NCBI GenBank assembly: GCA_903861205.1 | Contig: CAIOTC010000018.1 | Coordinates: forward strand, 11,800-75,799 | Direction of reading: 5' to 3' | DNA length: 64,000 nucleotides | Origin: an uncultured bacterium | Lineage (GTDB): Bacteria > Patescibacteriota > Minisyncoccia > Phycocordibacterales > DATDWN01 | In this document: in pieces, positions 47,613-60,992 of the stretch | Position numbering within the stretch: the first letter of the stretch is position 1 | How the letters are laid out: the number at the start of each line of letters is the position of its first letter | The notes under the pieces: model-generated | Seen by the model: only the letters and a program-made list of their open reading frames with translations | What the model was told of the DNA's origin: nothing | Databases searched by the model: none | Made by a program: the position numbers and the translations under genes

Positions 47613-47686
47613 TTACATGCGAGTGCAAGTTTAGCCAGACTAATCTTAGCTTATTTTCCAAAATCTCGGATTGAAGAAAAAACTTT

Positions 47687-47735
47687 CCGAGGACTGACCT
47701 CCGGTGCCCAATTTTTTGAGGTCAGACCTCCGAAA
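47687..47735. repeat. Palindromic element family P5 (ccgaggactgacctcc…gaggtcagacctcc), intergenic copy
   Basis: ccgaggactgacctccggtgcccaattttttgaggtcagacctccg. A second copy lies at 48125-48175 in frame in the giant ORF, where it is translated as PRTDLQCPISRGQTSG. Confidence 0.55.
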
Positions 47736-47858
47736 TTTTTTGTGAAAAATGATCCGAGAATTTGAGAAAGTCCAAAATCTCTGATTGCCGAGAAAGCCTT
47801 ATTTATCCACAGTTTTTTGCTGTAATTACACTCTGCGAACATATATAATATAGAGGTA

Positions 47859-50800
47859 ATGAGTTCCGATTTATTCTTTCAAAATAAAAAATATATTTCC
47901 GCTAAAGAAGCGGCGGAACTAACTTCGTATTCCAGAGATTACATCGGACAACTTTGCCGCGATAAAAAAATTGATTCGAAAAGAATCGGACACACTTGGT
48001 ACGTTTGCGAGGAATCAATTTTAAATTATAAAAACACTCCTACTGATTTTGATTTTGCGAAGAATTTTAAAGGTGCGCTCACACCGGGTGTTGGGGATCA
48101 AACACCCGGTGAGAGCTCCACAAATTTGTTCCCGAGGACTGACCTCCAATGCCCAATTTCCCGAGGTCAGACCTCCGGAACAAAATTTGTCAAATCGACA
48201 CACAAAATTCTTTTTGCAAAGAATTTTCACTTCTCGAAAGTTTTTGCTTCTGTTGCGGCAATTGTCATTTTCTTCCTTGGGACGATTTCATTGGCGCAAG
48301 GTTTTGCGAATCTTGTTCCGATGACTTCAAAATTTGCCGGCGATGTTTCGAAAATTTCTCTTTCACAAATTGCAAAGTCCGCGCAAAATATTTCAGATGA
48401 AATTTCCGCAGCGCCGGAAAATTCTTACAACGCGCTAAAAGATATTGCAGTTTTTTATTCATCGGAGTTTACCGATGGTCTGATCAATTTTGGAAATAAA
48501 ATTCAAAACGCCACTTTTGCATTTTTGAATCAAACGAAAAAATTGGCCAAAAATCCCCCGCTTTACATCGTCCAATCTTTGACCGGGCTAGCCGGTGGCG
48601 AAACAAAAATTGTCGACAGTGGAATTTCCATTTCCGGCAACGCCATCGCCACGGCGCACGAAAAAACTTTTGCTTTTATTTCCGACTCGATTGGCGGTTT
48701 ACCTTTTGTTGCGAACTACACCACCTCGACAACAAAAAATATGACTTCGTCGGTGGCGATGGCGGTGCAAGAAAAAGCATTGACGCCGGTTGATCATGCC
48801 GGCATTTCGATTTATGACTCGGTCAACAATTTCTTCCGAACGAATTTGTATTCTCCGCTCCTAGCATTTCTCGGTAAAAGTCCGAACATTGTGGTGCCGG
48901 AGAAAAAGTCGGCAGGACCGATGATTGCGAAAAATCAGGGTGTGCTCACACCAAAGTCAGATTTGTCCACACCTGGTGATAACGTTGCTTCGCCGTTGAC
49001 ACCAGGTGAGTACAAATCTGCGGGCATAACCAGCGCGGAGCTTGATTTGCGTTTACAGGAACTCGACAACAAAATCGCGGCCAAGTTTGCCCAACTTTCG
49101 ACTGGCAACGGCGGAAGCGTGCAAAATATTTACAACATGATTGCTCAGAGCCAAGTCGGCGCGGGCGTCTCGAACGGCGGATCGGCCAGCTCGGCAACGG
49201 TAGCCAACGGACTTGTGGCCGGCACGGACATCAGCGTCAACTCCATCACGGTTACCGGCTCGGCCACATCGACATTCGCCGGCGGAATTGCGATTAGCGG
49301 CGGCTGTATTTCGGTGAACGGCGTTTGCCTCGGTTCCGGTTCCGGCAACACAACTGGCGGTTTGGCCGGACAATTTCCGTATTACCAAAATGACGGTTCG
49401 ACACTTTATGCAACTTCATCAATCTTTATCACCCCGAACGGAAATGTCGGCATTGGCACGACGACGCCCGCCAAAAAATTCTCGGTTGACGGCGATGTCA
49501 TTGTTAGCGGAAATATTTTCACCACGCTTTTCAATGCCATCAGCTTGAGCGCGACGAATGCCACGACATCAAACTTCGCCATTACCAACATCAAATCATC
49601 TCTCCTCAAAACAAACGCCGACGGCACGGTTGTCGCCGCGATTGCCGGCACCGACTACGAATCCAGCACAACGGTCAATTCGCTGATCAACGCTTCGACC
49701 ACCATCGCCAAACTTTACACCAACAACAATTTCACCGGACTGCAAACATTCAACTACTCATCCTCCACCATTTACTCATCGTTTGTCACCGCCTCGACCA
49801 CCAATCTTTTGGCCGGTACCATCTCACTCAACGGCACAGATTTGCAAACGACACTCAACGGCAAGCAATCCACCATCTCCGCTAACTGGCCGTTCACACT
49901 CACCGGCAGCACACTTGGTTGGAATGGTCTTTCCACTTCATCGGCCGCCACCATCGGCAACATTCCGTACTTCACCTCCGCAAACACATTCGGCAATGTT
50001 GGAACCACCACACCGACATTTAACCTCGGTCTGACAGCCGGAGGAACATGGTCTGTTCTCGGTTCCGCGCCGACACTTACCATCGCTACATCTTCTCTCT
50101 ACACCGGTACCACCGGACAATTCCCGTACTTCAGTGGGACAAACACCATCACTGCCACTTCGTCACTCTTCCTCGCGACGAGTGGGAATGTGGGCATTGG
50201 AACGGCGATTCCGGGCGTGAAATTGCAAGTTGTAGGACAATCAGGAACTGGAAACATAGGAGTGATAAATATCACCGGTTATGACTCGTTCGGTCAAAGT
50301 TTGGTTATGCAACTGCCAAGTACCGGATATACCGGTAATCTGATTGCATTGATGAAAGCCGCCGGTGGCTCAGGCCAGGCCATGGGTTTTTCAACTCATT
50401 TTACTTCCGACGCGGTTGACAGGTTTTCCATAATGAATCATCTTGGCGTTGAAAATCTTTCTGTTTTAGACAGCGGCAACGTTGGCATTGGCAGTACTTC
50501 TCCAACATACAAACTATCGGTCGAAGGAACATCATCTCTAGGCAATCAAGCCATCGCCGGATATTTCACCGCCACCTCGACCATGGCCACTTCCACATTC
50601 GCCGGCGGTCTCGACATCACCAAAGGTTTGCAACTGAACAGCGGCTACATTTTCGGCGCGGGACTTTCCTCTTGCAACGGCACTACGGCCAAACTTTTAT
50701 GGAACGCGACCACCGGCCAATTCGAGTGCGGCACTGATGCCGGCTCGTCCGGTCTCGGCATCTCATCGATCAACGGTCTGGCTGTCGGTGTGCAAAAATT

Positions 50801-53800
50801 AGCCACATCGTCCACTAACGGCGGCTGGGGATTTTTGTCATCGGTTGACACGCACACGCTCAACATTCCGACGGCCTCGGCGACAAATCCGCTCGGTTTA
50901 CTTTCGTCATCGGACTGGACAACGTTCAACAACAAGGACAGTTTCGCTTTTCCATTCATCGCCCAATCGTACGGAATGTCCACCACGTCAACTCTCGGTT
51001 TGCTCGGCGGATTTTTCACACCGGCTTCGGCCTCATCCACCATCGCCGGCACGTTCAACTTGCCGTCACTTTCAAACGGCGCGCTGGCCGTCTACAACGG
51101 ACTGGTCGGAAGCTATGCCACCACCACGGCCGGATCTTCTCTGACATATTCCGGCAATGCGTTTAATCTGAACATGGCCAACGCCAACTCGTGGACGGCC
51201 AACCAAACATTTGCATTCTCGTCGACCACGTATGCATCGCTGACCACCGCGTCGACAACCAATCTCACCATCGGCGGAAACACTTTCAACACACTTGTCG
51301 GCGCAGGACTGATCAACAACTCCGGCGCGCTTGGTCTGACCAACACTTCGCTTACAGTCAACGCCGGCACCGGACTTTCCGGCGGTGGCACAGTCGCTTT
51401 AGGCGGAACAATCACACTTTCAAATCAGCTGGCCACCTCGTCCGGCGAATCAGCGGGCAACTTGGCATACTGGACCACGACCAACGGAGTGCCGGCCAAA
51501 CTCGGCTCGGTGGCCACCACCACCCTGACTGCTTCCGGCGCGCTGTCACTCGACCACGCCATTTCCGTGCTTGGCTCGACACCATCGATCCTGACATGCG
51601 CCACCGCCAACTCCTCGACGTTCGGATGTTTAGCCGCCGCTGACTTCTCCAAATTTAATTCCGCCACCACTACTTTTGGCGGAGGATTGTCATATTCAAA
51701 CGCATCAAATCAAGCGACACTGAACATGGCCAATGCAAACACTTGGACAGCGTTGCAATCATTCAACTACTCATCGTCAACGATTTACTCATCATTCGTC
51801 ACAGCATCGACCACAAATCTTTTGGCCGGAACAATTTCACTGGGCGGCGCCGATTTGCAGACGACACTGAATTCGAAACTTGGCACATCCCTCGCCAAAG
51901 GAAAATTCCTCGTAGGCGATGATAATGGCGTGGCGCAGGCGACATCGACAATTTTCATTTCTTCGACAGGCAACGTGGGGATTGGGACAGCAGTACCGGG
52001 AGCGTTAGTTCACATATTGTCTTCTGCAACAAAAAATGTAAATGGCCAAGAAGTTTTGAGACTTTCAGGTACAGCTGCAGCTGACACTATTGGAAGCGGG
52101 CCCAAAATATTATTTACTCATTCCGACAACACAGTAACCGCATCGATTCGCTCTTATACTTTTGGGGCTAGTGATACTGGTCTGGCATTTAGCACTGGTT
52201 ATGGAGCTTTGACAGATAAGATGTTTATTAATAACGCGGGCTCCGTCGGCATCGGCTCGACATCTCCGACGTACAAACTCTCCGTCGAAGGAACATCATC
52301 TCTCGGCAATCAAGCCATCGCCGGATATTTCACTGCCACTTCTACCATGGCTACTTCGACATTCGCCGGCGGACTCGATATCACCAAAGGTTTGCAACTG
52401 AACTCCGGTTACATTTTTGGCGCGGGATTGGGAACATGCTCGTCTGTTACCGGAAAAATAACTTGGAATTCAGCAACCGGACAATTTGGTTGCGGGACTG
52501 ACGCGGGTTCGTCCGGTGTTGGCATCACCTCTCTCGGCGCGCAATATTCCATCGCTCAAACCAACGCTATCCAAACTCTGGCTACCTCGACATCGCTCGA
52601 CGCCAATCTCCGACTGACCATCACCTCGGCCGGCGACACGCACACATTCACACCGTCCTGGTTTGGCACGCTCGACGACAGTCGCATCACTTCGGCCGCC
52701 AATTGGAACACCGCGTACTCGAGCAGAATCACCTCCGCCTCACTGCCGCTTTCATTCTCCGGCAACGTTCTCTCAATCTCGCAAGCCAACGGCACGACCA
52801 ACGGCTACTTGTCCGCTGCTGACTTCTCCAAATTTAATTCTGCGACAACAACATTCGGCGGAGGATTGACATACACCGCGGGCACAAACCAAGCTACGCT
52901 GAATCTTGGAAATGCCAACACCTGGACTGCACTGCAATCTTTCAACTACTCCTCATCAACCATTTACTCGTCATTTGTCACAGCTTCGACCACCAATCTT
53001 TTGGCCGGCACCATTTCACTGGGCGGCACCGATTTGCAAACAACACTCAATGGCAAACAATCCACTATCTCTGCATCATGGCCGATTACACTAAACGGTG
53101 CGACAGTTGGCTTCAACGGACTCTCCACTTCCTCTGCAGCTGTCACCGGCAACATTCCATACTTCACCGGAGCGAACACATTCGGCAATGTGGCTACCAC
53201 TACACCAACATTCAATCTCGGACTGACAGCTGGAGGAACATGGTCTGTTCTAGGCTCCGCACCGACACTTTCCATCGCCACTTCTTCTCTCTACACCGGT
53301 ACTGCTGGACAATTCCCATATTTTAGTGACACCAACACCATCACCGCCACTTCATCGCTCTTCTTAGCGACGAGTGGGAATGTAGGCATCGGGACGGCAT
53401 CTCCTGTAACTCCTCTAGATATCTACAGAAACGGCAGTTACTACAATTATTTAAATCTCAGAAACGGGCAAATGAGTAATAACGTCGGCTTGCCTTCCGT
53501 AGACACTGTGTTCAGCGTTAGCCAAGAAACTCCAACATATGGGAAAGCGATAGTCACCGGAGTTTATTCAAATGGAGACAGCTACGCATTAAAATTGAAG
53601 GGAGTTAGCGGAGCAACCAGTTTGACCGCGGCCCCTCTTGTTTTGACCGGCGCAAAAAGAAATAGCAGCAGTCAAGTTAACGTTGCTGATACAGAACAGT
53701 TGTTGCAAGTACAAAAAAATGATGGCACTGCTTTGATGACTATGTTGGGTGGTGGAAATTTGGGCATTGGCACCACCTCGCCATCGTACAAATTGGATGT

Positions 53801-56800
53801 GATGGGTGGTATTGCTTCGTACGGTTCTTCGTTCTTTGGCGGAGCCATCACCGCCACATCGACACTGAACGTCAGCGGACTTGCGACATTCGCGTATTCC
53901 ACCACCACCTACGGATCTTTCACCACCGCTTCAACAACAAATTTTGTTTTGAACGGACAAACATTCAACAATCTTGTTGGTTCCGGTCTGTCGCTAAACA
54001 ACGGCGTGCTTTCCGCGACGGGTGGAGCCGGCAATGTTTCTACCTCATCAGGTGAGGTAATGGGACAACTTTCATACTGGACTACCACTAATGGCACCCC
54101 GGCAAAATTGGGAAGCGTCGCCACCACCACCTTGACCGCTTCCGGCGCGCTCTCACTCGATCACGCCATTTCCGTTCTCGGCGGAACTCCGGCGATCCTC
54201 ACATGCACCACGGCCAACGCCACCACTTTCGGTTGTTTGGCCGCCGCTGACTTCTCCCGCTTCAATTCCGCCACGACGACATTCAGCGGAGGACTATCCT
54301 ACACAGCCGGCACAAATCAAGCATCGCTTAACATGGCAAATGCAAATACATGGACAGTCAACCAATCTTTCAATTATTCCTCATCAACCATTTACTCGTC
54401 ATTTGTCACCGCCAGCACCACCAATCTTTTGGCTGGCACAATCTCACTCAATGGCACGGATTTGCAAACAACATTGAACTCAAAACTCGGAACGACACTG
54501 GCCAAAGGAAAATTCATTGTCGGTGATGACAACGGTGTGGCGCAGGCGACATCGACACTATATATATCATCCCTCGGCCAAATCGGCATCGGCGATACCT
54601 CGCCGTCCGCTTTACTTTCCGTTGGCACCACTACCAGCACCAACGCCGTTGGCGGAATGTATTTTGGCAAGGACACCACGGCGAATTTGTACAGGAGTGG
54701 AGCGGGATGGTTGAAGACTGATGGAAATTTGGAAGTGGCCGGCGGAACAGGTTTGAAAATCAGCAGTGGAGCTTTAAATATGAATGGTGGCGCAATTAGT
54801 AGTATCAGACAATTAGTTGGAGCTACAACTGATGATGGAACAGGTGTAATTAATTTCTCTAATGCAAATCTTACATCCGCTCAATATATTAACCTTACCC
54901 AAAATACTTCCGCTTTTACCGGCGACGGTTTGAAGTTTAATTTCGCTGCAGGCTCCGGTTCCTTCACCGGCAACTTTGCTGAGTTCCAAAATAACAGCGT
55001 AACAAAGTTTGTTGTCAAATCAGATGGTTCAACCGGCATCGGCTCATCCACTCCCGGTTCGCTCCTCTCCATTGGTGGCAATGGCACAGGTTGGAATTTC
55101 TTTGACAACGGCACGACGACCAGCTACGCAAAAGGAATTGATCTGAAAAACGGCGGTTGCTTCGCTGTCAACGGCACGTGCTTGTCGAGTGGCGGATTGT
55201 CGGCGGCCATCACTTCGCTCAACGGACTAACCGGCGCGATCCAAACATTCGCCACCACATCGATCGCCGGCGGTTGGGGCTGGAGCTCGGTTGGCACCAC
55301 ACACACACTCAACATTCCGACGGCTTCGGCCACCAACCCACTCGGCCTGCTTTCCGGCGCGGACTTCACCACCTTCTCCAACAAGCTCGGCAACACGCTG
55401 GCCAAAGGTAATTTCTTTGTCGGCTCGGATGGCAATGTGGCGCAAGCGACAAGTTCCATTTTCATTTCATCGACCGGCTCGATCGGCATCGGCACGCAAA
55501 ATCCATCATCGCTTCTGTCGATCCTCGGCACCACCGGCGGACCGTCACTTTTCAACGTCGCCTCCACATCGGGCAATTCCATTTTCAGCATTCTCAATAA
55601 CGGCTCGATCGGCATCGGCACATCATCACCGCTCGCCACGCTGGACATTCAAAATAATCCGACCAGTTTCCAAAATTTGCTGAACTTCTCAAACTCCTCC
55701 GGCACATCGCTCATGAATGTCGGCTGGTACGGCGACTTGACCCAAAATATTTCCTCGACCTCGGCGGTCAATATCCAGGACGGCGCGGGCAACTCGGTCT
55801 TCTCGATCGACACCACGCAGTCGTCGTCCAACGCCGGTCTCGACATCACCGCGGGTGGCGCGCAGTCGGGTAATTTGCTGAACGTCTACTCGTCCGGCGG
55901 CGACTTGCTCTCCGGCATCACCTCCGAGGGCGGCTGGTTCTCCAACATCGGCTCGACCAACGCGCTGTCCCTGCAAAACGGCAGTGGCTTGCCGGCCTTC
56001 ACATTTGACACCATCGGCAACCAGCTGACCGTCGGCTCGTCGACCGTGCCGACCACTTCGCTTCTCAATGTCATTGCCGTCGACCAATCGACTGATTTGT
56101 TTGACATCGCGTCAACCTCAGGCACGACATCATATTTGCACGTGACCAACACCGGCCAAACCGGCATTGGTACCAGCACCATAAACGGCACATCGCTTGC
56201 TTCCACTTTGACCGTGGCCGGTGACGCCAACTTCCCGACATATCCGCTTTTGACCATCGCCTCGTCCACCGGCACAAATCTGTTGACACTGGGTGTCAAC
56301 GGATATCTGGGACTTGGCTCGACCACTCCGGGCTCGCTGTTGTCGGTGGGTGGCGATGCAGTGGGCATCAACTTCTCGCTCGCGACAACGACGTACTCGA
56401 CCACCGGTGGAATTAACCTAACCAAAGGTGGTTGCTTTGCGGTCAACGGCACATGCCTATCTGGTGGAGGAATTTCCGGATTGACCGGTTCAACATTGGC
56501 TAAAGGCAGTTTCCTCGTTGGCGGCGACAACAATCAATCGCAGGCGACATCGACACTATATATATCATCCCTCGGACAAATCGGCATCGGATCAACCACT
56601 CCATGGGGTCTCCTCTCCGTCAACGCCAACGCTCTCACCTCCGACACACCGCAATTCGTTGTCGGCTCATCGACCGCCACCAACTTCATCGTGGCGAATA
56701 ATGGCAACGTCGGCATCGGGACAACGAGTCCACAGGCAACCTTGAATGTTTGGGGAACTTCCGGAACAAATCCGTTTTTGGTTTCTTCATCAACGGGAAG

Positions 56801-59800
56801 TGGGCTGATGGTTGTTCAACAGAACGGCAATGTCGGGATTGGGACGACGGGGCCCAATGCTGACTTGGATATATCTAATGCTAATCTGACACAAACAATC
56901 AGGCTGGGTTATTCGGGAACTCCGGCGGGACAGTATGCGCAATTTCAATTTAATAAAGCCTCGGATAATAGTTTAAATATTCTCACAAATTATTCCGGAG
57001 GTACAAATAATGTAATAACGTTCTCTCCAGGCGGAACCGAAAAGGTGCGATTTCAACAGAACGGCAACGTCGGCATCGGGACGACGACTGTGGGTAGTAG
57101 ATTAGTCGTGCAAGGTTCGGGAGCTACATCAGCTACGACAGCTTTAACGGTACAGAACAGTGCGGGAAGTGTGGCAATGTCAATATTAAATAACGGCAAC
57201 GTCGGCATCGGGACGACGAGTCCGAGTCAGTTGTTGACTGTGGGGAATAATAATCAGTTTACGGTTTCTTCAGTCGGAGCACTGGTGTCTCAAACGGCAA
57301 CAATTGGAGCAACGGCTGTGGTGCCTGTTGTGGTGAGTGGTACCGGAATATTCGGTGGCGCTTCTCCTAATGGGACATACAGTTATATTGGTAAGGATGG
57401 CTTTGGTGCAAATGAGTATCAATTTGGTACTTGGTATATATGGTGGGATAATGCGGTGCCTTGCTGGATTATTAATCATAGCCTTGGAACATGGAGTTCA
57501 AACGGGTTTTATAGTAGCGGAGGTTCAGGAACACCGCCATATGGTTTGGCCTGGAACAATGGGTCGTCAGGAACTGTGACTACTGCCGCTGGAGTGGCAA
57601 GTAATTTGACGGTAGATGGAGGTGGCAGCATTATTACCGGTGGTACTTTAAGTGTAAATGGAACAGGGAATAGTTATATACTCGGCAACGTCGGCATCGG
57701 GACAACGAGTCCACAGGCAACCTTGAATGTTTGGGGAACTTCCGGAACAAATCCGTTTTTGGTTTCTTCATCAACGGGAAGTGGGCTGATGGTTGTTCAA
57801 CAGAACGGCAATGTCGGCATCGGCACCACCACTCCAACCAACAAACTGACCATCACCGACACGGCCAATCCGCAGTTGACCCTGTCGGCTGACGCGGGTG
57901 TCTCGCAATGGGCCTTCCGCAACGCCGGTGGGAATTTGTATTTTGCCACGACCACGGTGGCGGGAACAGCGACAACATCGACTTCTGCGCTCTCCATTTT
58001 TAACAACGGCAACGTCAGCATTGGCAATTCCGCCACAGCCAACACTCTGACGGTTGGTGGCGGTTCGAACCTTGCCAGTATCAGCAACACCGCCACTTCC
58101 ACATTCTCACACAGCATCAGCTTGTCTGACGGATGTTTTGCCATCGGTAACACTTGCATCGGCTCGTCAAACGGCTCGGGCACGGTTGGTGTGGGAACGC
58201 AGGGTTATGTTCCGTTCTACAACACCGCCACCGATGTTCTCCAGGCCACATCGACACTATATATAGCGCAGTCTGGCTACGTCGGCATCGGCGGAGTGAC
58301 CAGTCCGACAAATCCGCTGGACGTCAGAGTCGGTGGCAGTGTTGCTTCGCCGAAACTGATTTCCTTTGACTTACTCGGTTCGGTCGAGCGCATCAAGACA
58401 ACATCGACCGCTTTGGATTTGCCAAACTTTATATATCTCGACTCGTCATCCGGCGACGCCACTTTGTCCAACACGGCCAACACCCAGAGCCAGATATTGC
58501 TCGGCGCTAATACCACTGTCGAAGGTCAGGGCAGTTTGTACCTCGACACATTCTCCGGCGGTGGCGGCAGCATTTTCTTCCGACCGCTCGGCACGCAGAA
58601 AATGGTTTTGACCAGTGATGGCAAACTGGGCGTGAATACCACAGCTCCGGCAGGGAATTTGCAAGTCAACGATGGCGCGAACGCTTTCCTGGTCAACGCC
58701 TCCGGCCAAGTCGGCATCGGCACGACCACACTGACATCGAAACTTTCCGTCGAGGGTAGCGTGACCTCATCGGGCGCCAGCGCGGTGGCGGGATTGTTCG
58801 CTTCGTCAACATTGAGCAACTCGAATGGTAGCGGATTCCAGTTCGGCAACAGGCTGATCAACAACGTCATCGGTGGAACGGCCGGGACCGAGGACGGGTT
58901 GTTCGTGCGCATGATCGATTCGTCCAGCGCAGCCAACACGGTGCGTGGTCTCGAAGTTCAGGCTTACTCGGGCAACAACACGGCCGGCGTCAACACCGGT
59001 ATCGCCACCTACGGCAAGACATTCGGTTTGCAAGCTTACACCACCGCGCTGGCCGGCGGAGTGTCGCAACCGGCGGCGGTGTTTGCGCAACTCGACAACG
59101 GCGGCGCACCGACCATCGGCAATGCTATTCGCGCATATTCCAACTCGCTGACATCGGCCACGCTGGTCAGTTTGTACCACGAGACATCGGCCTTCACCGG
59201 CACAGGTTTGGCCATGAACTTCGGCAACAACTCCGGCAGCTTCAGCGGTAACTTCCTCGATTTGCAAAACGCGGGTGTGAGCAAGTTCCGAGTCAACAGT
59301 GTTGGCCAAACGATAATCGGTTCTGCCGGTTCGTTCAACAGCTCGATGCTCGATGTCGCTTCGTCGACCGCCACCTCGAACGTCGACATGTTCCGCATCA
59401 TCTCCGACGTCGGTGGCGCGGCCAACGTCAAATTCCGCATCGACTCCGACGGAGATGTCTTCACTGACGGTGGCACGACAATCGGCTCACCGGCCGACAT
59501 CGCCGAGAATTATCCGGTCGCCGAGGACGGCCTCGAAGCCGGCGACGTGGTGGCATTGTCAACATCAACAAGGGTCCCCCTTGTGGATTCTGGATTACAA
59601 GGGGGACCCTTGTTGGGAGATTCTGCAACCACCACCATCTCCGGTCTTGTCAAAGCTTCTCGCACCGAGCGCAACATTCTCGGTATCGTCTCAACCAAGC
59701 CAGGCGTTCTGCTTTCCGGCAACACCGAAAATGCCGTGCCTGTCGCGTTGGCCGGACGCGTGCCAGTCAAAGTGTCTGACGAAAACGGCGCCATTGTGGT

Positions 59801-60992
59801 CGGTGACTACTTGACCGTTTCGAAACTGCATCCGGGCTACGCCGCCAAAGCGCTGTACTCCGGCACCGTCATCGGCCAGGCGTTGGAGAGCACACCTGGT
59901 GTCAACGGCGAAGCAACGTTATCACCGGGTGTTAGCTCGAACCCAAACCCAGCCACTTCAACCATCCTCGCCTTCGTTCACGTCGGCTGGCAAAACGTCG
60001 ACAACCAATTCGTTCTCGGCGATAATGGCGACCAATTGACCGGCGATGTCGGCGACGGTGCGCCAAAAGATGCGGCTGACGGCGGATTCCTGATCAACCA
60101 AAAAGGCAGCGGTTCGATCTTGCAACTGCAATCGAACGACCAAAACCGATTCATGGTGGCGACATCCGGCGCAGTGACGATTTTGGCTGACACTTCGTGC
60201 GATGTTGGCGGAGAACTCTCACCTGGTGTCAACGGCGCAGCAACGTTATCACCGGGTGTGAGTTCGAACTCTTGCGCCAATCTCTTCACCGTCAAAAATA
60301 ATTCGAACGAAATCTTTAGCGTCAACGTTCGCGGAGATGTCGCGATCAAAGGCGTCTTGGTTGCTACCGACGATAGCTTTGCCGGATCGATTGCCACCAA
60401 AGCCGACGGTACCGCTGACATCGACTTCTCGTACAACCTCGGCACAGGCAAACCGGTCGTCGAGTTGACACCGGAGAGCGACTCGCCGGTCTTCGCGCAA
60501 GTCATGTCGTGGAAGAAAGACAGCGACGGCAACTACACCGGACTGGTCGTCAAAACATTTGGCTTGAGCGGCACAGCAATTTCCTCAACCGTGCACTACG
60601 TGGTGGTGGGGAAGAAAAGCGGCTACTCCACCAACGGAACAGTCATGAATGTGATGTCCTCACCGGGTGTCGGCGGCGCAGGAGCCGGAGGTGTTTCCTC
60701 GGGTAGCGAAGCGGACGGAGGTGACTCCTCGGGCGTACCGAGTGTGAGTTCAAACCCTGCTTCAACTACCCCTGACACTTCCGCCACAACCACGCCCGCA
60801 ACCGGAGAACTCTCACCTGGTGGAGCCGGAGGTGTTTCCTCGGGTGCCGACAGCCAGTCGGACACCGGAGGTGACTCCTCGGGCGCACCCGTTTCCACTC
60901 CCACCACCCCCGACACCCAACCAACCGCCTCCGCTTCAGTTGACATTCCAGCCTCAGTCCCAGCTTCCGTCGACACAAATCAAACACAATAA
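47859..60992 (+). CDS. Giant (4377 aa) cell-surface repetitive protein with an N-terminal HTH_17-like segment, a single TM helix, a huge Gly/Ser/Thr/Ala-rich repeat region (tail-fibre-like NVGIGTT/S-P repeats) and a C-terminal S74-like intramolecular-chaperone-like segment
   Basis: It is one uninterrupted 13.1-kb ORF. The first 55 aa resemble an excisionase/MerR HTH (ISAKEAAELTSYSRDYIGQLCRDKKIDSKRIGHTWYV), and a TM helix follows at about aa 130-150. The remainder consists of reiterated ~150-aa modules (…TWTALQSFNYSSSTIYSSFVTASTTNLLAGTISL(N/G)GTDLQTTLN… and …GNVGIGTTSP…). The C-terminus (…GGTTIGSPADIAENYPVAEDGLEAGDVVAL…ILGIVSTKPGVLLSG…) resembles tail-spike/fibre chaperone domains. GC is ~55%, against ~30-45% elsewhere. 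The exact start and domain homologies are uncertain. Confidence 0.6.
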   Translation: MSSDLFFQNKKYISAKEAAELTSYSRDYIGQLCRDKKIDSKRIGHTWYVCEESILNYKNTPTDFDFAKNFKGALTPGVGDQTPGESSTNLFPRTDLQCPISRGQTSGTKFVKSTHKILFAKNFHFSKVFASVAAIVIFFLGTISLAQGFANLVPMTSKFAGDVSKISLSQIAKSAQNISDEISAAPENSYNALKDIAVFYSSEFTDGLINFGNKIQNATFAFLNQTKKLAKNPPLYIVQSLTGLAGGETKIVDSGISISGNAIATAHEKTFAFISDSIGGLPFVANYTTSTTKNMTSSVAMAVQEKALTPVDHAGISIYDSVNNFFRTNLYSPLLAFLGKSPNIVVPEKKSAGPMIAKNQGVLTPKSDLSTPGDNVASPLTPGEYKSAGITSAELDLRLQELDNKIAAKFAQLSTGNGGSVQNIYNMIAQSQVGAGVSNGGSASSATVANGLVAGTDISVNSITVTGSATSTFAGGIAISGGCISVNGVCLGSGSGNTTGGLAGQFPYYQNDGSTLYATSSIFITPNGNVGIGTTTPAKKFSVDGDVIVSGNIFTTLFNAISLSATNATTSNFAITNIKSSLLKTNADGTVVAAIAGTDYESSTTVNSLINASTTIAKLYTNNNFTGLQTFNYSSSTIYSSFVTASTTNLLAGTISLNGTDLQTTLNGKQSTISANWPFTLTGSTLGWNGLSTSSAATIGNIPYFTSANTFGNVGTTTPTFNLGLTAGGTWSVLGSAPTLTIATSSLYTGTTGQFPYFSGTNTITATSSLFLATSGNVGIGTAIPGVKLQVVGQSGTGNIGVINITGYDSFGQSLVMQLPSTGYTGNLIALMKAAGGSGQAMGFSTHFTSDAVDRFSIMNHLGVENLSVLDSGNVGIGSTSPTYKLSVEGTSSLGNQAIAGYFTATSTMATSTFAGGLDITKGLQLNSGYIFGAGLSSCNGTTAKLLWNATTGQFECGTDAGSSGLGISSINGLAVGVQKLATSSTNGGWGFLSSVDTHTLNIPTASATNPLGLLSSSDWTTFNNKDSFAFPFIAQSYGMSTTSTLGLLGGFFTPASASSTIAGTFNLPSLSNGALAVYNGLVGSYATTTAGSSLTYSGNAFNLNMANANSWTANQTFAFSSTTYASLTTASTTNLTIGGNTFNTLVGAGLINNSGALGLTNTSLTVNAGTGLSGGGTVALGGTITLSNQLATSSGESAGNLAYWTTTNGVPAKLGSVATTTLTASGALSLDHAISVLGSTPSILTCATANSSTFGCLAAADFSKFNSATTTFGGGLSYSNASNQATLNMANANTWTALQSFNYSSSTIYSSFVTASTTNLLAGTISLGGADLQTTLNSKLGTSLAKGKFLVGDDNGVAQATSTIFISSTGNVGIGTAVPGALVHILSSATKNVNGQEVLRLSGTAAADTIGSGPKILFTHSDNTVTASIRSYTFGASDTGLAFSTGYGALTDKMFINNAGSVGIGSTSPTYKLSVEGTSSLGNQAIAGYFTATSTMATSTFAGGLDITKGLQLNSGYIFGAGLGTCSSVTGKITWNSATGQFGCGTDAGSSGVGITSLGAQYSIAQTNAIQTLATSTSLDANLRLTITSAGDTHTFTPSWFGTLDDSRITSAANWNTAYSSRITSASLPLSFSGNVLSISQANGTTNGYLSAADFSKFNSATTTFGGGLTYTAGTNQATLNLGNANTWTALQSFNYSSSTIYSSFVTASTTNLLAGTISLGGTDLQTTLNGKQSTISASWPITLNGATVGFNGLSTSSAAVTGNIPYFTGANTFGNVATTTPTFNLGLTAGGTWSVLGSAPTLSIATSSLYTGTAGQFPYFSDTNTITATSSLFLATSGNVGIGTASPVTPLDIYRNGSYYNYLNLRNGQMSNNVGLPSVDTVFSVSQETPTYGKAIVTGVYSNGDSYALKLKGVSGATSLTAAPLVLTGAKRNSSSQVNVADTEQLLQVQKNDGTALMTMLGGGNLGIGTTSPSYKLDVMGGIASYGSSFFGGAITATSTLNVSGLATFAYSTTTYGSFTTASTTNFVLNGQTFNNLVGSGLSLNNGVLSATGGAGNVSTSSGEVMGQLSYWTTTNGTPAKLGSVATTTLTASGALSLDHAISVLGGTPAILTCTTANATTFGCLAAADFSRFNSATTTFSGGLSYTAGTNQASLNMANANTWTVNQSFNYSSSTIYSSFVTASTTNLLAGTISLNGTDLQTTLNSKLGTTLAKGKFIVGDDNGVAQATSTLYISSLGQIGIGDTSPSALLSVGTTTSTNAVGGMYFGKDTTANLYRSGAGWLKTDGNLEVAGGTGLKISSGALNMNGGAISSIRQLVGATTDDGTGVINFSNANLTSAQYINLTQNTSAFTGDGLKFNFAAGSGSFTGNFAEFQNNSVTKFVVKSDGSTGIGSSTPGSLLSIGGNGTGWNFFDNGTTTSYAKGIDLKNGGCFAVNGTCLSSGGLSAAITSLNGLTGAIQTFATTSIAGGWGWSSVGTTHTLNIPTASATNPLGLLSGADFTTFSNKLGNTLAKGNFFVGSDGNVAQATSSIFISSTGSIGIGTQNPSSLLSILGTTGGPSLFNVASTSGNSIFSILNNGSIGIGTSSPLATLDIQNNPTSFQNLLNFSNSSGTSLMNVGWYGDLTQNISSTSAVNIQDGAGNSVFSIDTTQSSSNAGLDITAGGAQSGNLLNVYSSGGDLLSGITSEGGWFSNIGSTNALSLQNGSGLPAFTFDTIGNQLTVGSSTVPTTSLLNVIAVDQSTDLFDIASTSGTTSYLHVTNTGQTGIGTSTINGTSLASTLTVAGDANFPTYPLLTIASSTGTNLLTLGVNGYLGLGSTTPGSLLSVGGDAVGINFSLATTTYSTTGGINLTKGGCFAVNGTCLSGGGISGLTGSTLAKGSFLVGGDNNQSQATSTLYISSLGQIGIGSTTPWGLLSVNANALTSDTPQFVVGSSTATNFIVANNGNVGIGTTSPQATLNVWGTSGTNPFLVSSSTGSGLMVVQQNGNVGIGTTGPNADLDISNANLTQTIRLGYSGTPAGQYAQFQFNKASDNSLNILTNYSGGTNNVITFSPGGTEKVRFQQNGNVGIGTTTVGSRLVVQGSGATSATTALTVQNSAGSVAMSILNNGNVGIGTTSPSQLLTVGNNNQFTVSSVGALVSQTATIGATAVVPVVVSGTGIFGGASPNGTYSYIGKDGFGANEYQFGTWYIWWDNAVPCWIINHSLGTWSSNGFYSSGGSGTPPYGLAWNNGSSGTVTTAAGVASNLTVDGGGSIITGGTLSVNGTGNSYILGNVGIGTTSPQATLNVWGTSGTNPFLVSSSTGSGLMVVQQNGNVGIGTTTPTNKLTITDTANPQLTLSADAGVSQWAFRNAGGNLYFATTTVAGTATTSTSALSIFNNGNVSIGNSATANTLTVGGGSNLASISNTATSTFSHSISLSDGCFAIGNTCIGSSNGSGTVGVGTQGYVPFYNTATDVLQATSTLYIAQSGYVGIGGVTSPTNPLDVRVGGSVASPKLISFDLLGSVERIKTTSTALDLPNFIYLDSSSGDATLSNTANTQSQILLGANTTVEGQGSLYLDTFSGGGGSIFFRPLGTQKMVLTSDGKLGVNTTAPAGNLQVNDGANAFLVNASGQVGIGTTTLTSKLSVEGSVTSSGASAVAGLFASSTLSNSNGSGFQFGNRLINNVIGGTAGTEDGLFVRMIDSSSAANTVRGLEVQAYSGNNTAGVNTGIATYGKTFGLQAYTTALAGGVSQPAAVFAQLDNGGAPTIGNAIRAYSNSLTSATLVSLYHETSAFTGTGLAMNFGNNSGSFSGNFLDLQNAGVSKFRVNSVGQTIIGSAGSFNSSMLDVASSTATSNVDMFRIISDVGGAANVKFRIDSDGDVFTDGGTTIGSPADIAENYPVAEDGLEAGDVVALSTSTRVPLVDSGLQGGPLLGDSATTTISGLVKASRTERNILGIVSTKPGVLLSGNTENAVPVALAGRVPVKVSDENGAIVVGDYLTVSKLHPGYAAKALYSGTVIGQALESTPGVNGEATLSPGVSSNPNPATSTILAFVHVGWQNVDNQFVLGDNGDQLTGDVGDGAPKDAADGGFLINQKGSGSILQLQSNDQNRFMVATSGAVTILADTSCDVGGELSPGVNGAATLSPGVSSNSCANLFTVKNNSNEIFSVNVRGDVAIKGVLVATDDSFAGSIATKADGTADIDFSYNLGTGKPVVELTPESDSPVFAQVMSWKKDSDGNYTGLVVKTFGLSGTAISSTVHYVVVGKKSGYSTNGTVMNVMSSPGVGGAGAGGVSSGSEADGGDSSGVPSVSSNPASTTPDTSATTTPATGELSPGGAGGVSSGADSQSDTGGDSSGAPVSTPTTPDTQPTASASVDIPASVPASVDTNQTQ
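48968..49010. repeat. Palindromic element family P3, in-frame copy in the giant ORF (forward orientation)
   Basis: The sequence ccacacctggtgataacgttgcttcgccgttgacaccaggtgag is translated as STPGDNVASPLTPGE. Confidence 0.6.
59569..59615. repeat. Palindromic element family P2 variant (aagggtccccctt…aagggggaccctt), in frame in the giant ORF
   Basis: It is translated as RVPLVDSGLQGGPLL. Compare the P2 copy inside RAYT-2, which is translated as RVPLLGSDSEKGAPFL. Confidence 0.55.
59891..59934. repeat. Palindromic element family P3, reverse-orientation in-frame copy
   Basis: The sequence cacacctggtgtcaacggcgaagcaacgttatcaccgggtgt is translated as TPGVNGEATLSPGV. Confidence 0.55.
60217..60262. repeat. 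Palindromic element family P3, reverse-orientation in-frame copy
   Basis: The sequence ctctcacctggtgtcaacggcgcagcaacgttatcaccgggtgtgag is the exact reverse complement of the gatB copy apart from a few substitutions. Confidence 0.6.

What the first reader, a model, noticed from the sequence alone, without database searches (positions are those of the whole stretch)
47859..60992. A 4377-aa giant ORF with an unusual architecture: excisionase-type HTH, TM anchor, ~4000 aa of tail-fibre-like repeats and a chaperone-like C-terminus, in GC-rich DNA
The N-terminal 55 aa resemble an HTH_17/MerR DNA-binding fold, are followed by a single TM helix, and then an enormous extracytoplasmic low-complexity repeat region. 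That topology would put a DNA-binding module in the cytoplasm tethered to a surface fibre. Either this is a mis-fused start or it is a membrane-tethered regulator/surface protein. The C-terminal ~250 aa (…ADIAENYPVAEDGLEAGDVVAL…) look like the auto-processing chaperone domain of phage tail spikes/fibres. GC is ~55%, far above that of the neighbouring genes (~30-45%). Giant surface proteins are known in episymbiotic CPR bacteria, where they are speculated to mediate host attachment.
Basis: partly seen in the sequence, partly recalled or inferred. Interest (0 to 1): 0.65.

Follow-up and report, generated by a model that had tools for sequence, protein, structure and literature searches.

The report
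Giant HTH-anchored trimeric surface fibre
A 4,377-residue protein of a Patescibacteria (CPR) bacterium is a phage-tail-fibre-like surface fibre, held in the membrane by one helix, with a small DNA-binding-type domain on the cytoplasmic side; the layout is real, recurs in about 160 related genomes, and I found no description of it.

Summary

- **HTH:** aa 5-59 are an HTH_17/excisionase-type winged helix. The isolated domain scores 28.8 bits against a cutoff of 27, pLDDT is above 95, and it superposes on Xis, BldC and RacA.
- **Membrane anchor and stalk:** aa 128-146 are the only strong hydrophobic segment. A helical stalk follows.
- **Fibre:** aa 431-3879 carry 21 'GNVGIGTTsPxxKLxV' units. A profile of these units matches only the crystal structures of Bdellovibrio MAT trimeric beta-helix fibres (E = 4e-19).
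- **Chaperone-like domain:** it lies at aa 3880-4050, not in the last 250 aa. It resembles the phi29 gp12 / Peptidase_G2 autochaperone, not Peptidase_S74. A beta-sandwich and a Ser/Thr/Pro-rich tail follow it.

The HTH is not a mis-fusion. In total 164 genome loci, nearly all Patescibacteria, and about 6,000 cluster representatives share the HTH-TM module. Many sit at the same obg-gatB-merR locus behind a conserved promoter that ends about 9 nt before the HTH's ATG.

Complete relatives end in S74 or G2-type chaperone domains.

The most likely role is a type II membrane-anchored homotrimeric adhesin. The role of the cytoplasmic HTH is unknown. I rate it a new variant of a known kind.

The parts
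46982..47224 (-). Small (80 aa) MerR-type HTH gene, divergent partner of the giant gene
   Evidence: PF00376 MerR 45.4 bits and PF13411; translation. It lies adjacent and divergent in 42 homologous loci. Median identity is 74% (maximum 87%), higher than GatB (61%) or Obg (66%).
47803..47811 (+). Conserved upstream promoter element TTATCCACA (DnaA-box consensus)
   Evidence: Exact match. It holds the same position, 30-32 nt upstream of TATAAT, in 38 of 81 loci; background frequency is 0.14 per kb. A second exact box (47319-47327, -) and a one-mismatch box (47303-47311, -) face the MerR gene.
47844..47849 (+). TATAAT (-10-like) hexamer, 9 nt before the ATG; implies a leaderless or very short-leader mRNA
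   Evidence: Read from the sequence. A TATAAT lies within 130 nt upstream of the start in 69 of 81 loci, and in the printed alignments it sits a few nucleotides before the ATG.
47859..60992 (+). Giant ORF, 4377 aa
47871..48035 (+). Cytoplasmic winged-helix HTH_17 / excisionase-type domain (aa 5-59)
   Evidence: PF12728 scores 28.8 bits on the isolated domain, and 37 of 39 family members match. The AF2 model has pLDDT 95-97 with beta-beta-H-H-beta-beta-H topology. It superposes on Pukovnik Xis, BldC, RacA and RdfS at TM 0.5-0.75 and rmsd 1.4-2.2 A, although the Foldseek E-values are not significant. This is the most conserved part of the protein.
48082..48180 (+). Two short palindromic repeat elements inserted in frame in the cytoplasmic linker (30-nt CACCGGGTG...CACCCGGTG at 48082-48111; 52-nt GAGGACTGACCTC...GAGGTCAGACCTC at 48129-48180)
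   Evidence: A copy of the 52-nt element lies intergenically at 47684-47735. The linker is not conserved in homologues and is disordered in the model.
48240..48296 (+). Single transmembrane helix (aa 128-146), signal-anchor
   Evidence: Kyte-Doolittle maximum 2.45. Nearly all homologues have a comparable peak (most KD 1.5-2.6) within about 350 aa of the N-terminus, most at 100-230 aa. It is helical in the model.
48309..48878 (+). Conserved all-alpha juxtamembrane stalk (aa 151-340, includes the PVDHAG motif at aa 310-315)
   Evidence: Alignments A3 and A6. The model shows long helices at pLDDT 55-76. No PDB or Pfam match was found.
48970..49008 (+). 39-nt palindromic element inserted in frame (encodes TPGDNVASPLTPGE)
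   Evidence: It falls in a disordered stretch of the model.
49026..49100 (+). Helical neck (aa 390-414, ITSAELDLRLQELDNKIAAKFAQLS), probable coiled coil
   Evidence: Helix at pLDDT about 85, conserved in P0003 and P0005. The coiled-coil assignment is an inference.
49149..59495 (+). Fibre shaft (aa 431-3879): 21 'GNVGIGTTsPxxKLxV' units plus larger diverged modules; Gly+Ser+Thr 42%; 9 close Cys pairs across the whole ectodomain, 8 of them in the shaft
   Evidence: Motif list. Profile A4 hits only MAT fibre structures: 8ond 4e-19, 8oml 6e-11, 8ol4 9e-10, 8on4 2e-6, 8ojn 1e-5. Nucleotide repeats are, composition and Cys pairs.
59496..60008 (+). phi29 gp12 / Peptidase_G2-like intramolecular-chaperone-like domain (aa 3880-4050), starting DIAENY
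   Evidence: The family profile matches 3gqh_A from chain residue 1 at E = 0.001. BFVD Foldseek gives 'Preneck appendage protein' at 1.2e-9, TM(target) 0.63, 163 columns. Two homologues have PF11962. phrog_19602 'tail fiber' scores 6e-4. Core pLDDT is 86-96.
59893..59931 (+). 39-nt palindromic element, opposite orientation, in frame (TPGVNGEATLSPGV) in a low-confidence loop of the chaperone-like domain; second copy at 60220-60258
   Evidence: pLDDT dips at model residues 131-150.
60279..60614 (+). C-terminal beta-sandwich (aa 4141-4252)
   Evidence: pLDDT 91-97, all beta. Only weak fold matches were found, to H-type lectins and to pyocin or phage fibre tips (E >= 0.018); I did not check which part of the model those matches cover. 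The region is conserved in the closest homologues, at 98-100% query coverage.
60624..60989 (+). Ser/Thr/Pro/Gly-rich low-complexity tail (aa 4256-4377)
   Evidence: Composition, sequence. No LPxTG motif is visible near the C-terminus.

Best explanation
The gene encodes a type II (N-in, C-out) single-pass membrane protein of a Paceibacteria-type Patescibacteria bacterium. Its roughly 4,230-residue ectodomain is a homotrimeric fibre built like a phage tail fibre.

**Proposed assembly and role**
- The mRNA starts at or just before the ATG.
- The 60-residue HTH_17 domain and a variable linker stay in the cytoplasm.
- The single TM helix acts as a signal-anchor, and the rest is exported.
- A conserved alpha-helical stalk and a coiled-coil neck carry the chain away from the membrane.
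- About 3,450 residues of MAT-type triple beta-helix and other fibre modules follow.
- Three chains are registered from the C-terminal end by a phi29-gp12-like (Peptidase_G2-like) intramolecular chaperone domain. That domain may cut itself off in front of Asp3880 (DIAENY).
- Scaling from the Bdellovibrio MAT fibre Bd3182 (922 aa, about 550 A) gives a fibre of roughly 0.2 micrometres.
- The most likely role is attachment to a host or partner cell.
- The cytoplasmic HTH is the best-conserved part. It most likely binds DNA or a conserved cytoplasmic partner, so it couples the fibre's membrane anchor to the nucleoid or to gene regulation.

**Shown here:** the domain order, homology of the fibre units to MAT fibres, the chaperone-like fold, and conservation of the architecture, the locus and the promoter.

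**Inferred:** trimer formation, autocleavage, length, adhesion, DNA binding.
For: **Architecture:**

**Conservation of HTH-TM-ectodomain:**
- All five word-index homologues have it.
- 164 genome loci were found, of which 80 were fetched. All are Patescibacteria except one 2.6-kb contig. Nearly all have a hydrophobic peak within about 350 aa of the N-terminus, most at 100-230 aa.
- 5,999 of 1.84 billion cluster representatives match at E <= 1e-3. They include proteins of 3760, 3878, 4336 and 4388 aa.

**Fibre shaft:**
- The profile of 21 internal units hits only five Bdellovibrio MAT crystal structures (E = 4e-19 to 1e-5).
- Their paper describes this motif as the capping loop of a trimeric beta-helix (PMC10769870).

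**C-terminal chaperone:**
- PDB 3gqh is aligned from its residue 1, DFAEYF.
- BFVD preneck appendage proteins match at 1.2e-9.
- PF11962 is present in two homologues.
- The phi29 gp12 C-terminal domain is an autochaperone that is cleaved off after folding (PMC3357383).
- Complete relatives with the same N-terminal module end in PF13884 Peptidase_S74 with the SDxxxK motif: L018 26.8 bits, L039 52.6 bits. The family therefore swaps two kinds of phage fibre chaperone.

**Extracytoplasmic location:**
- 18 of the 19 ectodomain Cys form nine close pairs.
- DsbB and thioredoxin genes lie 5 kb upstream.

**Genuine start and chromosomal gene:**
- The obg-gatB-merR(-)-gene synteny is conserved.
- The promoter is conserved.
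- The N-terminal module has no relative in 2.9 million viral contigs, whereas the C-terminal domain has four.
Against: - No Pfam, NCBIfam or PDB model hits the C-terminal domain of this protein directly. The link to gp12 rests on a profile E-value of 0.001 and on a predicted fold.
- About 330 residues follow the chaperone-like domain, unlike in gp12. Cleavage would release a well-folded beta-sandwich, so the domain may be retained rather than cut.
- From memory, gp12 cleavage needs ATP, which is absent outside the cell.
- Trimerisation and the fold of the shaft were not modelled.
- Topology rests on hydropathy, a weak positive-inside bias and the Cys pairs. No dedicated predictor was run.
- Nothing shows what the fibre binds.
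- Short relatives (300-420 aa, two HTH domains plus a TM) occupy the same locus. The conserved function of the N-terminal module therefore does not need a fibre.
- Foldseek E-values for the HTH against the PDB are not significant (0.2-1). Only the superposition quality supports the fold match.
Confidence: 0.68

Rival explanations
1. It is primarily a membrane-tethered transcription regulator or signal transducer. The fibre is the sensor, for host contact or tension. The HTH is the output, acting either while tethered (ToxR/CadC-like) or after proteolytic release (anti-sigma or MYRF-like logic). This is compatible with the fibre also being an adhesin.
For: - The HTH is the most conserved part of the protein: about 60% mean column identity, with an invariant recognition-helix motif DY(I/V)GQLxR, against about 30-39% over the N-terminal 430 aa.
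- Its best fold matches are all dsDNA binders: Xis, BldC, RacA, RdfS, TraN.
- The gene's own promoter carries conserved repeats (CCGAGA/TCTCGG in 53 of 81 loci) and a fixed TTATCCACA box.
- A highly conserved MerR-type gene is its divergent neighbour.
Against:
- No site-1 or site-2 protease motif was looked for, and no protease gene stood out among the neighbours scanned against Pfam.
- Short relatives with almost no ectodomain keep the HTH-TM module, so sensing through a fibre cannot be its general function.
- HTH folds are also used for protein-protein contacts, for example in RodZ (from memory).
Confidence: 0.2
2. It is a structural envelope component, such as a spacer, a surface coat or an S-layer-associated fibre, rather than a host-specific adhesin. 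The HTH serves only as a cytoplasmic anchoring or oligomerisation plug.
For: - The gene sits at a conserved housekeeping locus and is inherited vertically.
- The shaft is Ser/Thr-rich and probably glycosylated.
- A 35-kb glycan and glycosyltransferase cluster, including a PMT_2 protein-mannosyltransferase-like gene, lies in the same window.
Against: - Fibre length and C-terminal domains vary greatly between relatives: 300 to about 4,400 aa, with S74, G2-like, FG-GAP and Ig-like domains. That is the pattern expected of a fast-evolving recognition protein.
- The structurally characterised homologues (MAT fibres) are prey-recognition adhesins.
Confidence: 0.1
3. It is an artefact: a small HTH gene wrongly fused to a fibre gene, or a repeat-driven misassembly that inflates the ORF.
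For: - One 146-nt repeat pair is 97% identical (56703-56848 and 57684-57829).
- Five short mobile palindromic elements lie inside the ORF.
- Most homologous contigs break inside the gene.
- The exact protein is not in the public protein index.
Against: - The same fusion is seen in the 80 fetched loci from independent assemblies and in complete genes of 1,689-3,051 aa. Proteins of 3,760-4,388 aa also exist.
- The other repeats are only 60-87% identical.
- The frame stays open for 13 kb.
- The inserted elements are multiples of 3 nt, lie in frame and fall in disordered loops.
Confidence: 0.03
4. It is a prophage or phage-derived tail-fibre gene carried in an integrated element.
For: - Phage-type fibre units and a phage-type C-terminal chaperone domain are present.
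- GC3 is higher than in many neighbours.
- An IS200/Y1-transposase-like gene lies immediately downstream.
Against: - No phage structural, terminase or integrase genes were found among the ORFs scanned across the window.
- The flanks are housekeeping genes in conserved order across many genomes.
- The N-terminal HTH-TM module is absent from 2.9 million viral contigs.
- A membrane anchor is not a virion-attachment domain.
Confidence: 0.02

Closest known systems
Bdellovibrio bacteriovorus MAT (mosaic adhesive trimer) fibres, e.g. Bd2133 (PDB 8ond) and Bd3182 (Caulton et al. 2024, PMC10769870)
   Same: - They share the repeated shaft unit, the capping-loop motif (G-N-V/L-G-I/L-G-T-x-x-P-x-x-x-L); the profile E-value is 4e-19.
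- Both are cellular, not viral, fibres with interchangeable tips.
- Both families have an S74 chaperone in some members and other C-termini in others.
- Both belong to a bacterium that lives on other bacteria.
   Different: - MATs are about 1,000 aa and start with a signal peptide and a conserved 130-aa beta-rich domain. This protein is more than four times longer and starts with a cytoplasmic HTH, a TM anchor and a helical stalk.
- The organism is presumably monoderm.
- The C-terminal domain here is gp12-like, a type not reported for MATs.
Phage phi29 gp12 preneck appendage (tail spike), C-terminal autochaperone domain (PDB 3gqh; MEROPS/Pfam Peptidase_G2, PF11962)
   Same: - The domain starts with the same D-x-A-E-x-(Y/F) motif, aligned to residue 1 of the cleaved gp12 fragment.
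- The predicted fold is the same.
- It sits at the distal end of a trimeric beta-helical protein. In gp12 it drives trimer folding and is then cut off.
   Different: - PF11962 does not score on this protein.
- gp12 has an insertion of about 40 residues that is absent here.
- Here about 330 further residues follow the domain.
- The protein is exported by a cell, not assembled in a cytoplasm.
- Cleavage is untested.
Endosialidase / T5 pb1-type C-terminal intramolecular chaperone (Peptidase_S74, PF13884)
   Same: It has the same functional slot, and it is present above the Pfam cutoff in complete relatives that share this protein's N-terminal module.
   Different: It is absent from this protein: there is no HMM hit and no SD.R.K match in the translated sequence (read; not regex-scanned).
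MYRF (myelin regulatory factor), the eukaryotic membrane-bound transcription factor with a phage-type ICA/S74 domain
   Same: It is the only well-known protein that combines a DNA-binding domain, a TM helix and a phage fibre trimerisation/chaperone module in one chain (PMC8326128 abstract).
   Different: [quoted passage not shown]
- Here the TM separates the HTH from the fibre and chaperone domain, so self-cleavage could not release the HTH.
- The DNA-binding folds are unrelated.
Membrane-anchored HTH proteins (RodZ, ToxR/CadC) and the chromosome anchor RacA (comparisons from memory, except the RacA fold match)
   Same: - They have an N-terminal cytoplasmic HTH followed by one TM and an extracytoplasmic part.
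- The RacA MerR-like winged helix superposes on this HTH (TM 0.55, rmsd 2.1 A).
   Different: - The HTH classes differ: XRE in RodZ, OmpR-type in ToxR.
- RacA has no TM.
- None of them carries a fibre.
Trimeric autotransporter adhesins (the NCBI label on homologue P0001)
   Same: They are long, repetitive, trimeric surface fibres.
   Different: - TAAs are anchored by a C-terminal outer-membrane beta-barrel and start with a signal peptide.
- Here there is no YadA-anchor hit, and the anchor is an N-terminal TM helix.

Membership tests
HTH_17 (PF12728) / excisionase-type winged helix | Pfam HMM score at or above the gathering cutoff (27 bits) | tested here: met
   The isolated domain scores 28.8 bits, and 37 of 39 family members match (best 2.3e-8). 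The score falls below the cutoff when embedded: 26.3 bits on 150 aa and 20.1 bits on the full length.
HTH_17 (PF12728) / excisionase-type winged helix | Fold: strand, helix-turn-helix, beta-hairpin wing, C-terminal helix | tested here: met
   The AF2 model has pLDDT 95-97 with elements E5-7, E10-14, H15-22, H26-34, E40-43, E46-50, H51-59. It superposes on Xis 4j2n (TM 0.69-0.71, rmsd 1.6 A) and BldC 6ama (0.72, 1.4 A). Foldseek E-values are not significant, at 0.2-1.
HTH_17 (PF12728) / excisionase-type winged helix | Binds double-stranded DNA | not testable with these tools
   This is inferred only from the fold and the invariant recognition helix.
Peptidase_S74 (PF13884) intramolecular chaperone | HMM hit and the Ser-Lys dyad motif SDxxxK | tested here: not met
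   This protein has no hit at E <= 1 and no SD.R.K match in the translated sequence (read; no regex scan was run on this protein). The feature is met in relatives L018 (26.8 bits), L039 (52.6 bits) and others.
Peptidase_G2 (PF11962) / phi29 gp12 autochaperone | Pfam HMM hit | tested here: not met
   This protein has no hit. Two of 24 aligned homologues hit, the best at 3.8e-6.
Peptidase_G2 (PF11962) / phi29 gp12 autochaperone | Homology to, or the fold of, the cleaved C-terminal fragment of gp12, beginning at the D-F-A-E-Y-F cleavage-site motif | tested here: met
   The family profile matches 3gqh_A residues 1-118 at E = 0.001, with DIAENY aligned to DFAEYF. Foldseek against BFVD gives 'Preneck appendage protein' at E = 1.2e-9, TM(target) 0.63. 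Foldseek against the PDB did not recover 3gqh.
Peptidase_G2 (PF11962) / phi29 gp12 autochaperone | Autocatalytic cleavage and chaperone-dependent trimerisation | not testable with these tools
   This needs expression of the C-terminal fragment, SDS-PAGE or mass spectrometry, and a D3880/E3883 mutant.
MAT fibres (Caulton 2024) | Trimeric beta-helix shaft with capping-loop motif V-G-G/N-pi-x-x-P-x-x-x-L | tested here: met
   There are 21 motif copies. Profile A4 hits only five MAT structures, at 4e-19 to 1e-5. The motif definition is quoted. The trimeric state itself was not modelled.
MAT fibres (Caulton 2024) | [quoted passage not shown] | tested here: not met
   The N-terminus is HTH, a 60-aa linker, a TM and an all-alpha stalk.
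Trimeric autotransporter adhesin | C-terminal YadA-type beta-barrel membrane anchor | tested here: not met
   Pfam and NCBIfam give no such hit on the whole protein or on its last 498-567 aa. The C-terminus is a beta-sandwich plus a low-complexity tail.
MYRF-like self-releasing membrane transcription factor | [quoted passage not shown] | tested here: not met
   The order here is HTH (aa 5-59), TM (128-146), fibre, chaperone-like domain (3880-4050).
Type II single-pass membrane protein (N-in, C-out) | One TM segment; N-terminal side cytoplasmic, C-terminal side outside | tested here: inconclusive
   There is one strong hydrophobic segment. Four Lys precede it and two follow it. Eighteen of 19 downstream Cys are paired, whereas the three upstream Cys are not. 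No dedicated topology predictor was available.

The most novel reading that the evidence does not exclude
The family is a fibre-coupled, membrane-tethered DNA-binding system specific to Patescibacteria. The invariant HTH would bind a conserved DNA site. Candidates are the CCGAGA repeats and the TTATCCACA box in its own promoter, which is shared with the divergent, highly conserved MerR-type gene, or origin-proximal DNA. The surface fibre's contact with a host cell would then be linked directly to transcription, or to positioning of the chromosome at the attachment site, in cells only about 0.2-0.3 micrometres across. The giant fibre would be a lineage-specific elaboration of an ancestral, near-universal '2xHTH-TM' membrane protein of unknown housekeeping function.
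Probability: 0.15. Interest if true: 0.85.

Novelty: new variant of a known kind. Interest (0 to 1): 0.62.

Why it matters
How ultrasmall CPR/Patescibacteria recognise and hold on to their hosts is largely unknown beyond type IV pili.

This analysis defines a large Patescibacteria-restricted family by concrete features:
- about 6,000 cluster representatives and 164 species-level genome loci;
- phage-fibre-like surface proteins with swappable chaperone and tip domains;
- a fixed chromosomal address;
- a conserved promoter;
- an unprecedented cytoplasmic HTH on the membrane anchor.

These features yield testable candidates for host-range determinants in Paceibacteria. They explain why many CPR contigs break at this locus. 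They also raise a specific question: what does a DNA-binding fold do at the foot of a surface fibre?

The analysis shows as well that phage-type intramolecular chaperones (S74 and gp12-like) are used by cellular, Sec-exported fibres outside Bdellovibrio.

Tried and rejected

- Direct Pfam, NCBIfam and PDB sequence searches of the last 498-567 aa gave nothing. Only a family profile reached gp12.
- Foldseek of the C-terminal model against the PDB gave only non-significant hits (H-type lectins, pyocin fibre tips; E >= 0.018) and did not find 3gqh.
- A PDB search with the HTH profile gave only weak AM32/TraN hits (E = 0.025).
- Foldseek E-values for the HTH were not significant because the domain is small within a 430-aa query.
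- The stalk (aa 151-340) matched nothing.
- An exact look-up of the giant protein found no record. The GatB look-up found only a 3-kb contig without DNA.
- Rfam and tRNA scans of the window were empty.
- A self-BLAST of the protein returned no off-diagonal hits at 1e-10, so module boundaries rest on the nucleotide repeat table.
- The N-terminal module was not found in viral contigs.
- Seven literature searches and several paper look-ups found no description of an HTH-anchored fibre in Patescibacteria.

**Readings considered and dropped**
- *The 634-bp upstream region is oriC.* It has two exact and one near DnaA boxes plus AT-rich repeats. However, the boxes sit at fixed promoter distances in each gene's own orientation, and the GC-skew turn at 48 kb has the wrong sign and coincides with the start of the compositionally unusual ORF.
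- *The high GC marks horizontal transfer.* GC2 explains much of it, and GC3 is in the range of SecA and Wzy.

Full report
**Observation**

The ORF runs exactly from 47859 to 60992 on the + strand and encodes 4377 aa. GC inside it is 0.48-0.58 per 2-kb window, against 0.30-0.50 elsewhere.

Codon-position analysis shows two contributions.
- GC2 is 0.54, against 0.24-0.37 in all other genes. This reflects composition: Gly, Ser and Thr together make up 42% of the shaft.
- There is also a real synonymous shift to C-ending codons. AAC is 0.56 against 0.30, ATC 0.48 against 0.19, and TTC 0.61 against 0.24.
- GC3 is 0.58. That is no higher than expected from SecA (0.54) or the Wzy-TPR gene (0.56).
- The first 160 codons have GC 0.40, like the neighbours.

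The window itself is heterogeneous. Its left 35 kb is a low-GC glycan-synthesis cluster. High GC is therefore not evidence of foreign origin.

**N-terminus**

PF12728 HTH_17 matches aa 12-58. It scores 20.1 bits on the whole protein, 26.3 bits on the first 150 aa and 28.8 bits on the isolated domain; the cutoff is 27. Of 39 family members, 37 match.

An AlphaFold model built on 28 sequences gives pLDDT 95-97 for aa 1-60, with a strand, helix-turn-helix, wing, helix topology. The best superpositions are Pukovnik Xis, BldC, RacA, RdfS and TraN, at TM 0.5-0.75 and rmsd 1.4-2.5 A. All of these bind double-stranded DNA. The Foldseek E-values are not significant for so small a domain.

The rest of the N-terminal region is laid out as follows.
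- The linker (aa 60-123) is disordered and unconserved.
- The only strong hydrophobic segment is aa 128-146.
- Long helices of moderate confidence follow (aa 151-340). They include the conserved PVDHAG motif.
- A disordered stretch comes next, then a confident helix at aa 390-414.

**Is the HTH fused by mistake? No.**

- All five word-index homologues begin with the same HTH followed by a TM.
- A scan of one genome per species found 164 related loci. The 80 fetched are all Patescibacteria (Zambryskibacteria, Nomurabacteria, Taylorbacteria, Kaiserbacteria, Paceibacterota, Minisyncoccia) except one 2.6-kb contig labelled Nitrospira.
- Nearly all have a hydrophobic peak within about 350 aa of the N-terminus, most at 100-230 aa. 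Most ORFs run off the contig, up to more than 3,781 aa.
- An exhaustive profile search found 5,999 cluster representatives at E <= 1e-3 and 366 at E <= 1e-30. They include proteins of 3760, 3878, 4336 and 4388 aa.
- Inside the ORF there is no start codon between codon 2 and the TM other than a TTG at codon 90.
- The upstream region is conserved across the family. A perfect TTATCCACA lies at 47803-47811, followed by a 32-nt gap, TATAAT at 47844-47849, and then 9 nt to the ATG. Of 81 loci, 38 have TTWTCCACA and TATAAT separated by 30-32 nt; the background frequency of the box is 0.14 per kb.

This geometry implies a leaderless or near-leaderless mRNA that begins at the HTH's ATG.

**Locus**

In most fetched loci the gene follows obg, gatB and a divergent 80-aa MerR-type gene. 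Further upstream lie tyrS, a class A PBP and dnaN. The window has the same obg-gatB-merR arrangement.

The small MerR-type protein has a median identity of 74% to the window's copy. GatB has 61% and Obg 66%.

Both long forms and short forms (300-420 aa: two HTH domains, a TM and a few tens of extracellular residues) occupy this address. The gene is therefore chromosomal and vertically inherited, and its ectodomain is highly variable. The N-terminal module has no relative in 2.9 million viral contigs.

**Shaft**

The motif G-x-(V/I/L)-G-(I/L)-G occurs 21 times in the context 'xxGNVGIGTTsPxxKLxV'. A profile of these 62-residue units matched only five PDB sequences, all Bdellovibrio MAT fibres: 8ond Bd2133 at 4e-19, 8oml 6e-11, 8ol4 9e-10, 8on4 2e-6 and 8ojn 1e-5.

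The MAT paper describes this motif as the capping loop on the edges of a trimeric beta-helix. It is shared with S74 phage spikes and MYRF, in fibres that recognise prey and end either in an S74 chaperone or in other tips (PMC10769870).

The nucleotide repeats behind the larger modules are 60-87% identical, with one 146-nt pair at 97%. Wholesale collapse is therefore unlikely, but it cannot be excluded without reads.

Eighteen of the 19 Cys in the ectodomain form nine close pairs (C-x6-C, C-x9-C, C-x17-C, C-x24-C). That fits an exported protein. DsbB and a thioredoxin gene lie 5 kb upstream.

**C-terminal region**

DIAENY is at aa 3880. The 391-aa segment from there has 56 homologues, and a few of them carry PF11962, PF13884, collagen or H-lectin domains.

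Three lines of evidence link the segment to the phi29 gp12 autochaperone.
- A 24-sequence profile matched PDB 3gqh, the cleaved C-terminal fragment of the phi29 gp12 appendage. The match starts at chain residue 1 (DFAEYF) with E = 0.001.
- The AlphaFold model has mean pLDDT 77.7, with 86-96 in the domain core.
- That model matched BFVD 'Preneck appendage protein' models at E = 1.2e-9, TM(target) 0.63, over 163 columns.

The phi29 domain is an autochaperone removed after trimer folding (PMC3357383).

After the domain come a disordered stretch and then a confident beta-sandwich (aa 4141-4252). It has only weak lectin-like or fibre-tip-like fold matches, and I did not check which part of the model those matches cover. 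A Ser/Thr/Pro-rich tail ends the protein.

Complete relatives with the same N-terminal module end instead in a Peptidase_S74 domain with SDxxxK: L018 26.8 bits and L039 52.6 bits, against a cutoff of 22. More residues, often an Ig-like domain, follow it there. L006 and L070 carry the gp12-like type.

The family thus uses two unrelated phage fibre chaperones in the same slot. I regard this as the strongest indirect evidence that the ectodomain is a trimeric fibre folded from its C-terminal end.

**Mechanism proposed**

The proposed mechanism is signal-anchor insertion (N-in), export of the ectodomain, C-terminal registration of three chains by the chaperone-like domain, and zipping of the triple beta-helix back toward the membrane. 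The chaperone segment may then be removed by autocleavage in front of Asp3880.

Scaling from Bd3182 (922 aa, about 550 A) gives a fibre of roughly 0.2 micrometres. This is an extrapolation.

Adhesion to a host or partner cell is inferred from the MAT precedent and from the extreme variability of length and tip.

The role of the HTH is open. Its invariant recognition helix (DY[IV]GQLxR) and its DNA-binding fold relatives favour DNA binding. The existence of short fibre-less orthologues says that the module's core function is independent of the fibre.

**What weakens the account**

- The gp12 link is indirect.
- Residues downstream of the chaperone-like domain argue that it may be retained rather than cleaved.
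- Trimer state, topology, cleavage, ligand and DNA binding are all untested.

**Novelty**

Fibre shafts of this kind and their chaperones are known in phages, in Bdellovibrio MATs and in MYRF. A cytoplasmic HTH plus TM anchor at the base of such a fibre, conserved across a phylum at a fixed locus with a conserved promoter and a conserved MerR-type neighbour, was not found in seven literature searches. Public annotations call these proteins only 'helix-turn-helix domain-containing protein' or, wrongly, 'trimeric autotransporter adhesin'. I rate it a new variant of a known kind.

Noticed in passing
window 48970-49008, 59893-59931, 60220-60258, 48082-48111 (30-nt form), ~45970-46008 (inside gatB), 62812-62849 (intergenic relative): A 39-nt palindromic element (CACCWGGTG-N21-CACCNGGTG) is inserted in frame in coding genes, in both orientations. 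It encodes TPG(D/C)NVA(S/A)PLTPGE in one orientation and (T/S)PGVNGxATLSPGV in the other. One copy sits inside the GatB_N catalytic domain of the housekeeping gene gatB. In the giant protein all copies fall in disordered or low-pLDDT loops. It is absent from the 80 related loci. It resembles the Rickettsia palindromic elements that colonise ORFs (comparison from memory).
   Followed up: partly
window 47684-47735 and 48129-48180: A second repeat of about 52 nt (GAGGACTGACCTC-N16-GAGGTCAGACCTC, 87% identical copies) occurs once in the intergenic region and once in frame in the cytoplasmic linker of the giant protein, where it encodes FPRTDLQCPISRGQTSG. Two IS200/Y1-transposase-like genes (38849-39559, weak; 61004-61666, E = 2e-9) could be the cognate REP-associated transposases. 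This was not tested.
   Followed up: partly
window 46982-47224 (-) and homologous loci: An 80-aa MerR-type HTH protein without an effector domain lies divergent from the giant gene. It is conserved next to the HTH-TM gene in 42 loci and is more conserved than GatB or Obg (median 74%, up to 87% identity). It is a candidate regulator or partner of the family.
   Followed up: partly
window 47303-47327 (-), 47803-47811 (+); loci L001-L072 about 52-64 nt before the start codon: Perfect DnaA-box consensus TTATCCACA lies at a fixed distance (30-32 nt) upstream of TATAAT in 38 of 81 promoters of this gene family. CCGAGA/TCTCGG repeats lie just upstream in 53 of 81. Exact boxes also recur at conserved positions further upstream, a few kb before the gene and near the 5' end of many loci (their gene context was checked only in single loci). 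This may reflect DnaA-dependent transcription, another factor's site, or a lineage-specific promoter element. AT-rich tandem repeats at 47340-47460 lie between the two divergent promoters.
   Followed up: partly
window 1-35300: A large low-GC (GC3 0.22-0.35) glycan cluster is present. It contains GT2-methyltransferase, two GT11 fucosyltransferase-like genes, GT17, a PMT_2 protein-mannosyltransferase-like gene, GDP-mannose 4,6-dehydratase, an ABC transporter ATPase, a radical SAM/B12 protein, a TPP enzyme and a Wzy_C O-antigen-ligase-TPR fusion. It could glycosylate the Ser/Thr-rich fibre; this is speculative.
   Followed up: no
window 42057-43116; giant protein Cys positions: Thioredoxin-like and DsbB genes lie 5 kb upstream and are syntenic in 7 loci. 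The fibre has nine closely spaced Cys pairs (for example GGCFAVNGTCL four times). This suggests disulfide-stapled loops in a CPR surface protein.
   Followed up: partly
P0004, P0091, P0097, L039, and about 300-aa proteins P0112, P0116, P0126, P0143: Many family members have two tandem copies of the HTH. A very large subfamily (most of the top 150 profile hits) consists only of 2xHTH, a long linker, a TM near the C-terminus and a tail of about 40 aa. It is an apparently near-universal small membrane protein of Patescibacteria with unknown function.
   Followed up: partly
L018 (aa ~1160-1230 and repeats): One complete relative (2788 aa) carries seven FG-GAP/FG-GAP_3 repeats (an integrin-like beta-propeller) in the middle of the fibre and a Bact_surface_Ig-like domain after its S74 domain. 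This shows modular insertion of binding domains along the shaft.
   Followed up: no
L027 (JBEBJM010000080.1): This is the only non-Patescibacteria locus, a 2.6-kb contig binned as Nitrospira sp. It carries the same MerR-small gene (81% identical) and the HTH-TM gene, so it is most likely a mis-binned Patescibacteria contig.
   Followed up: no
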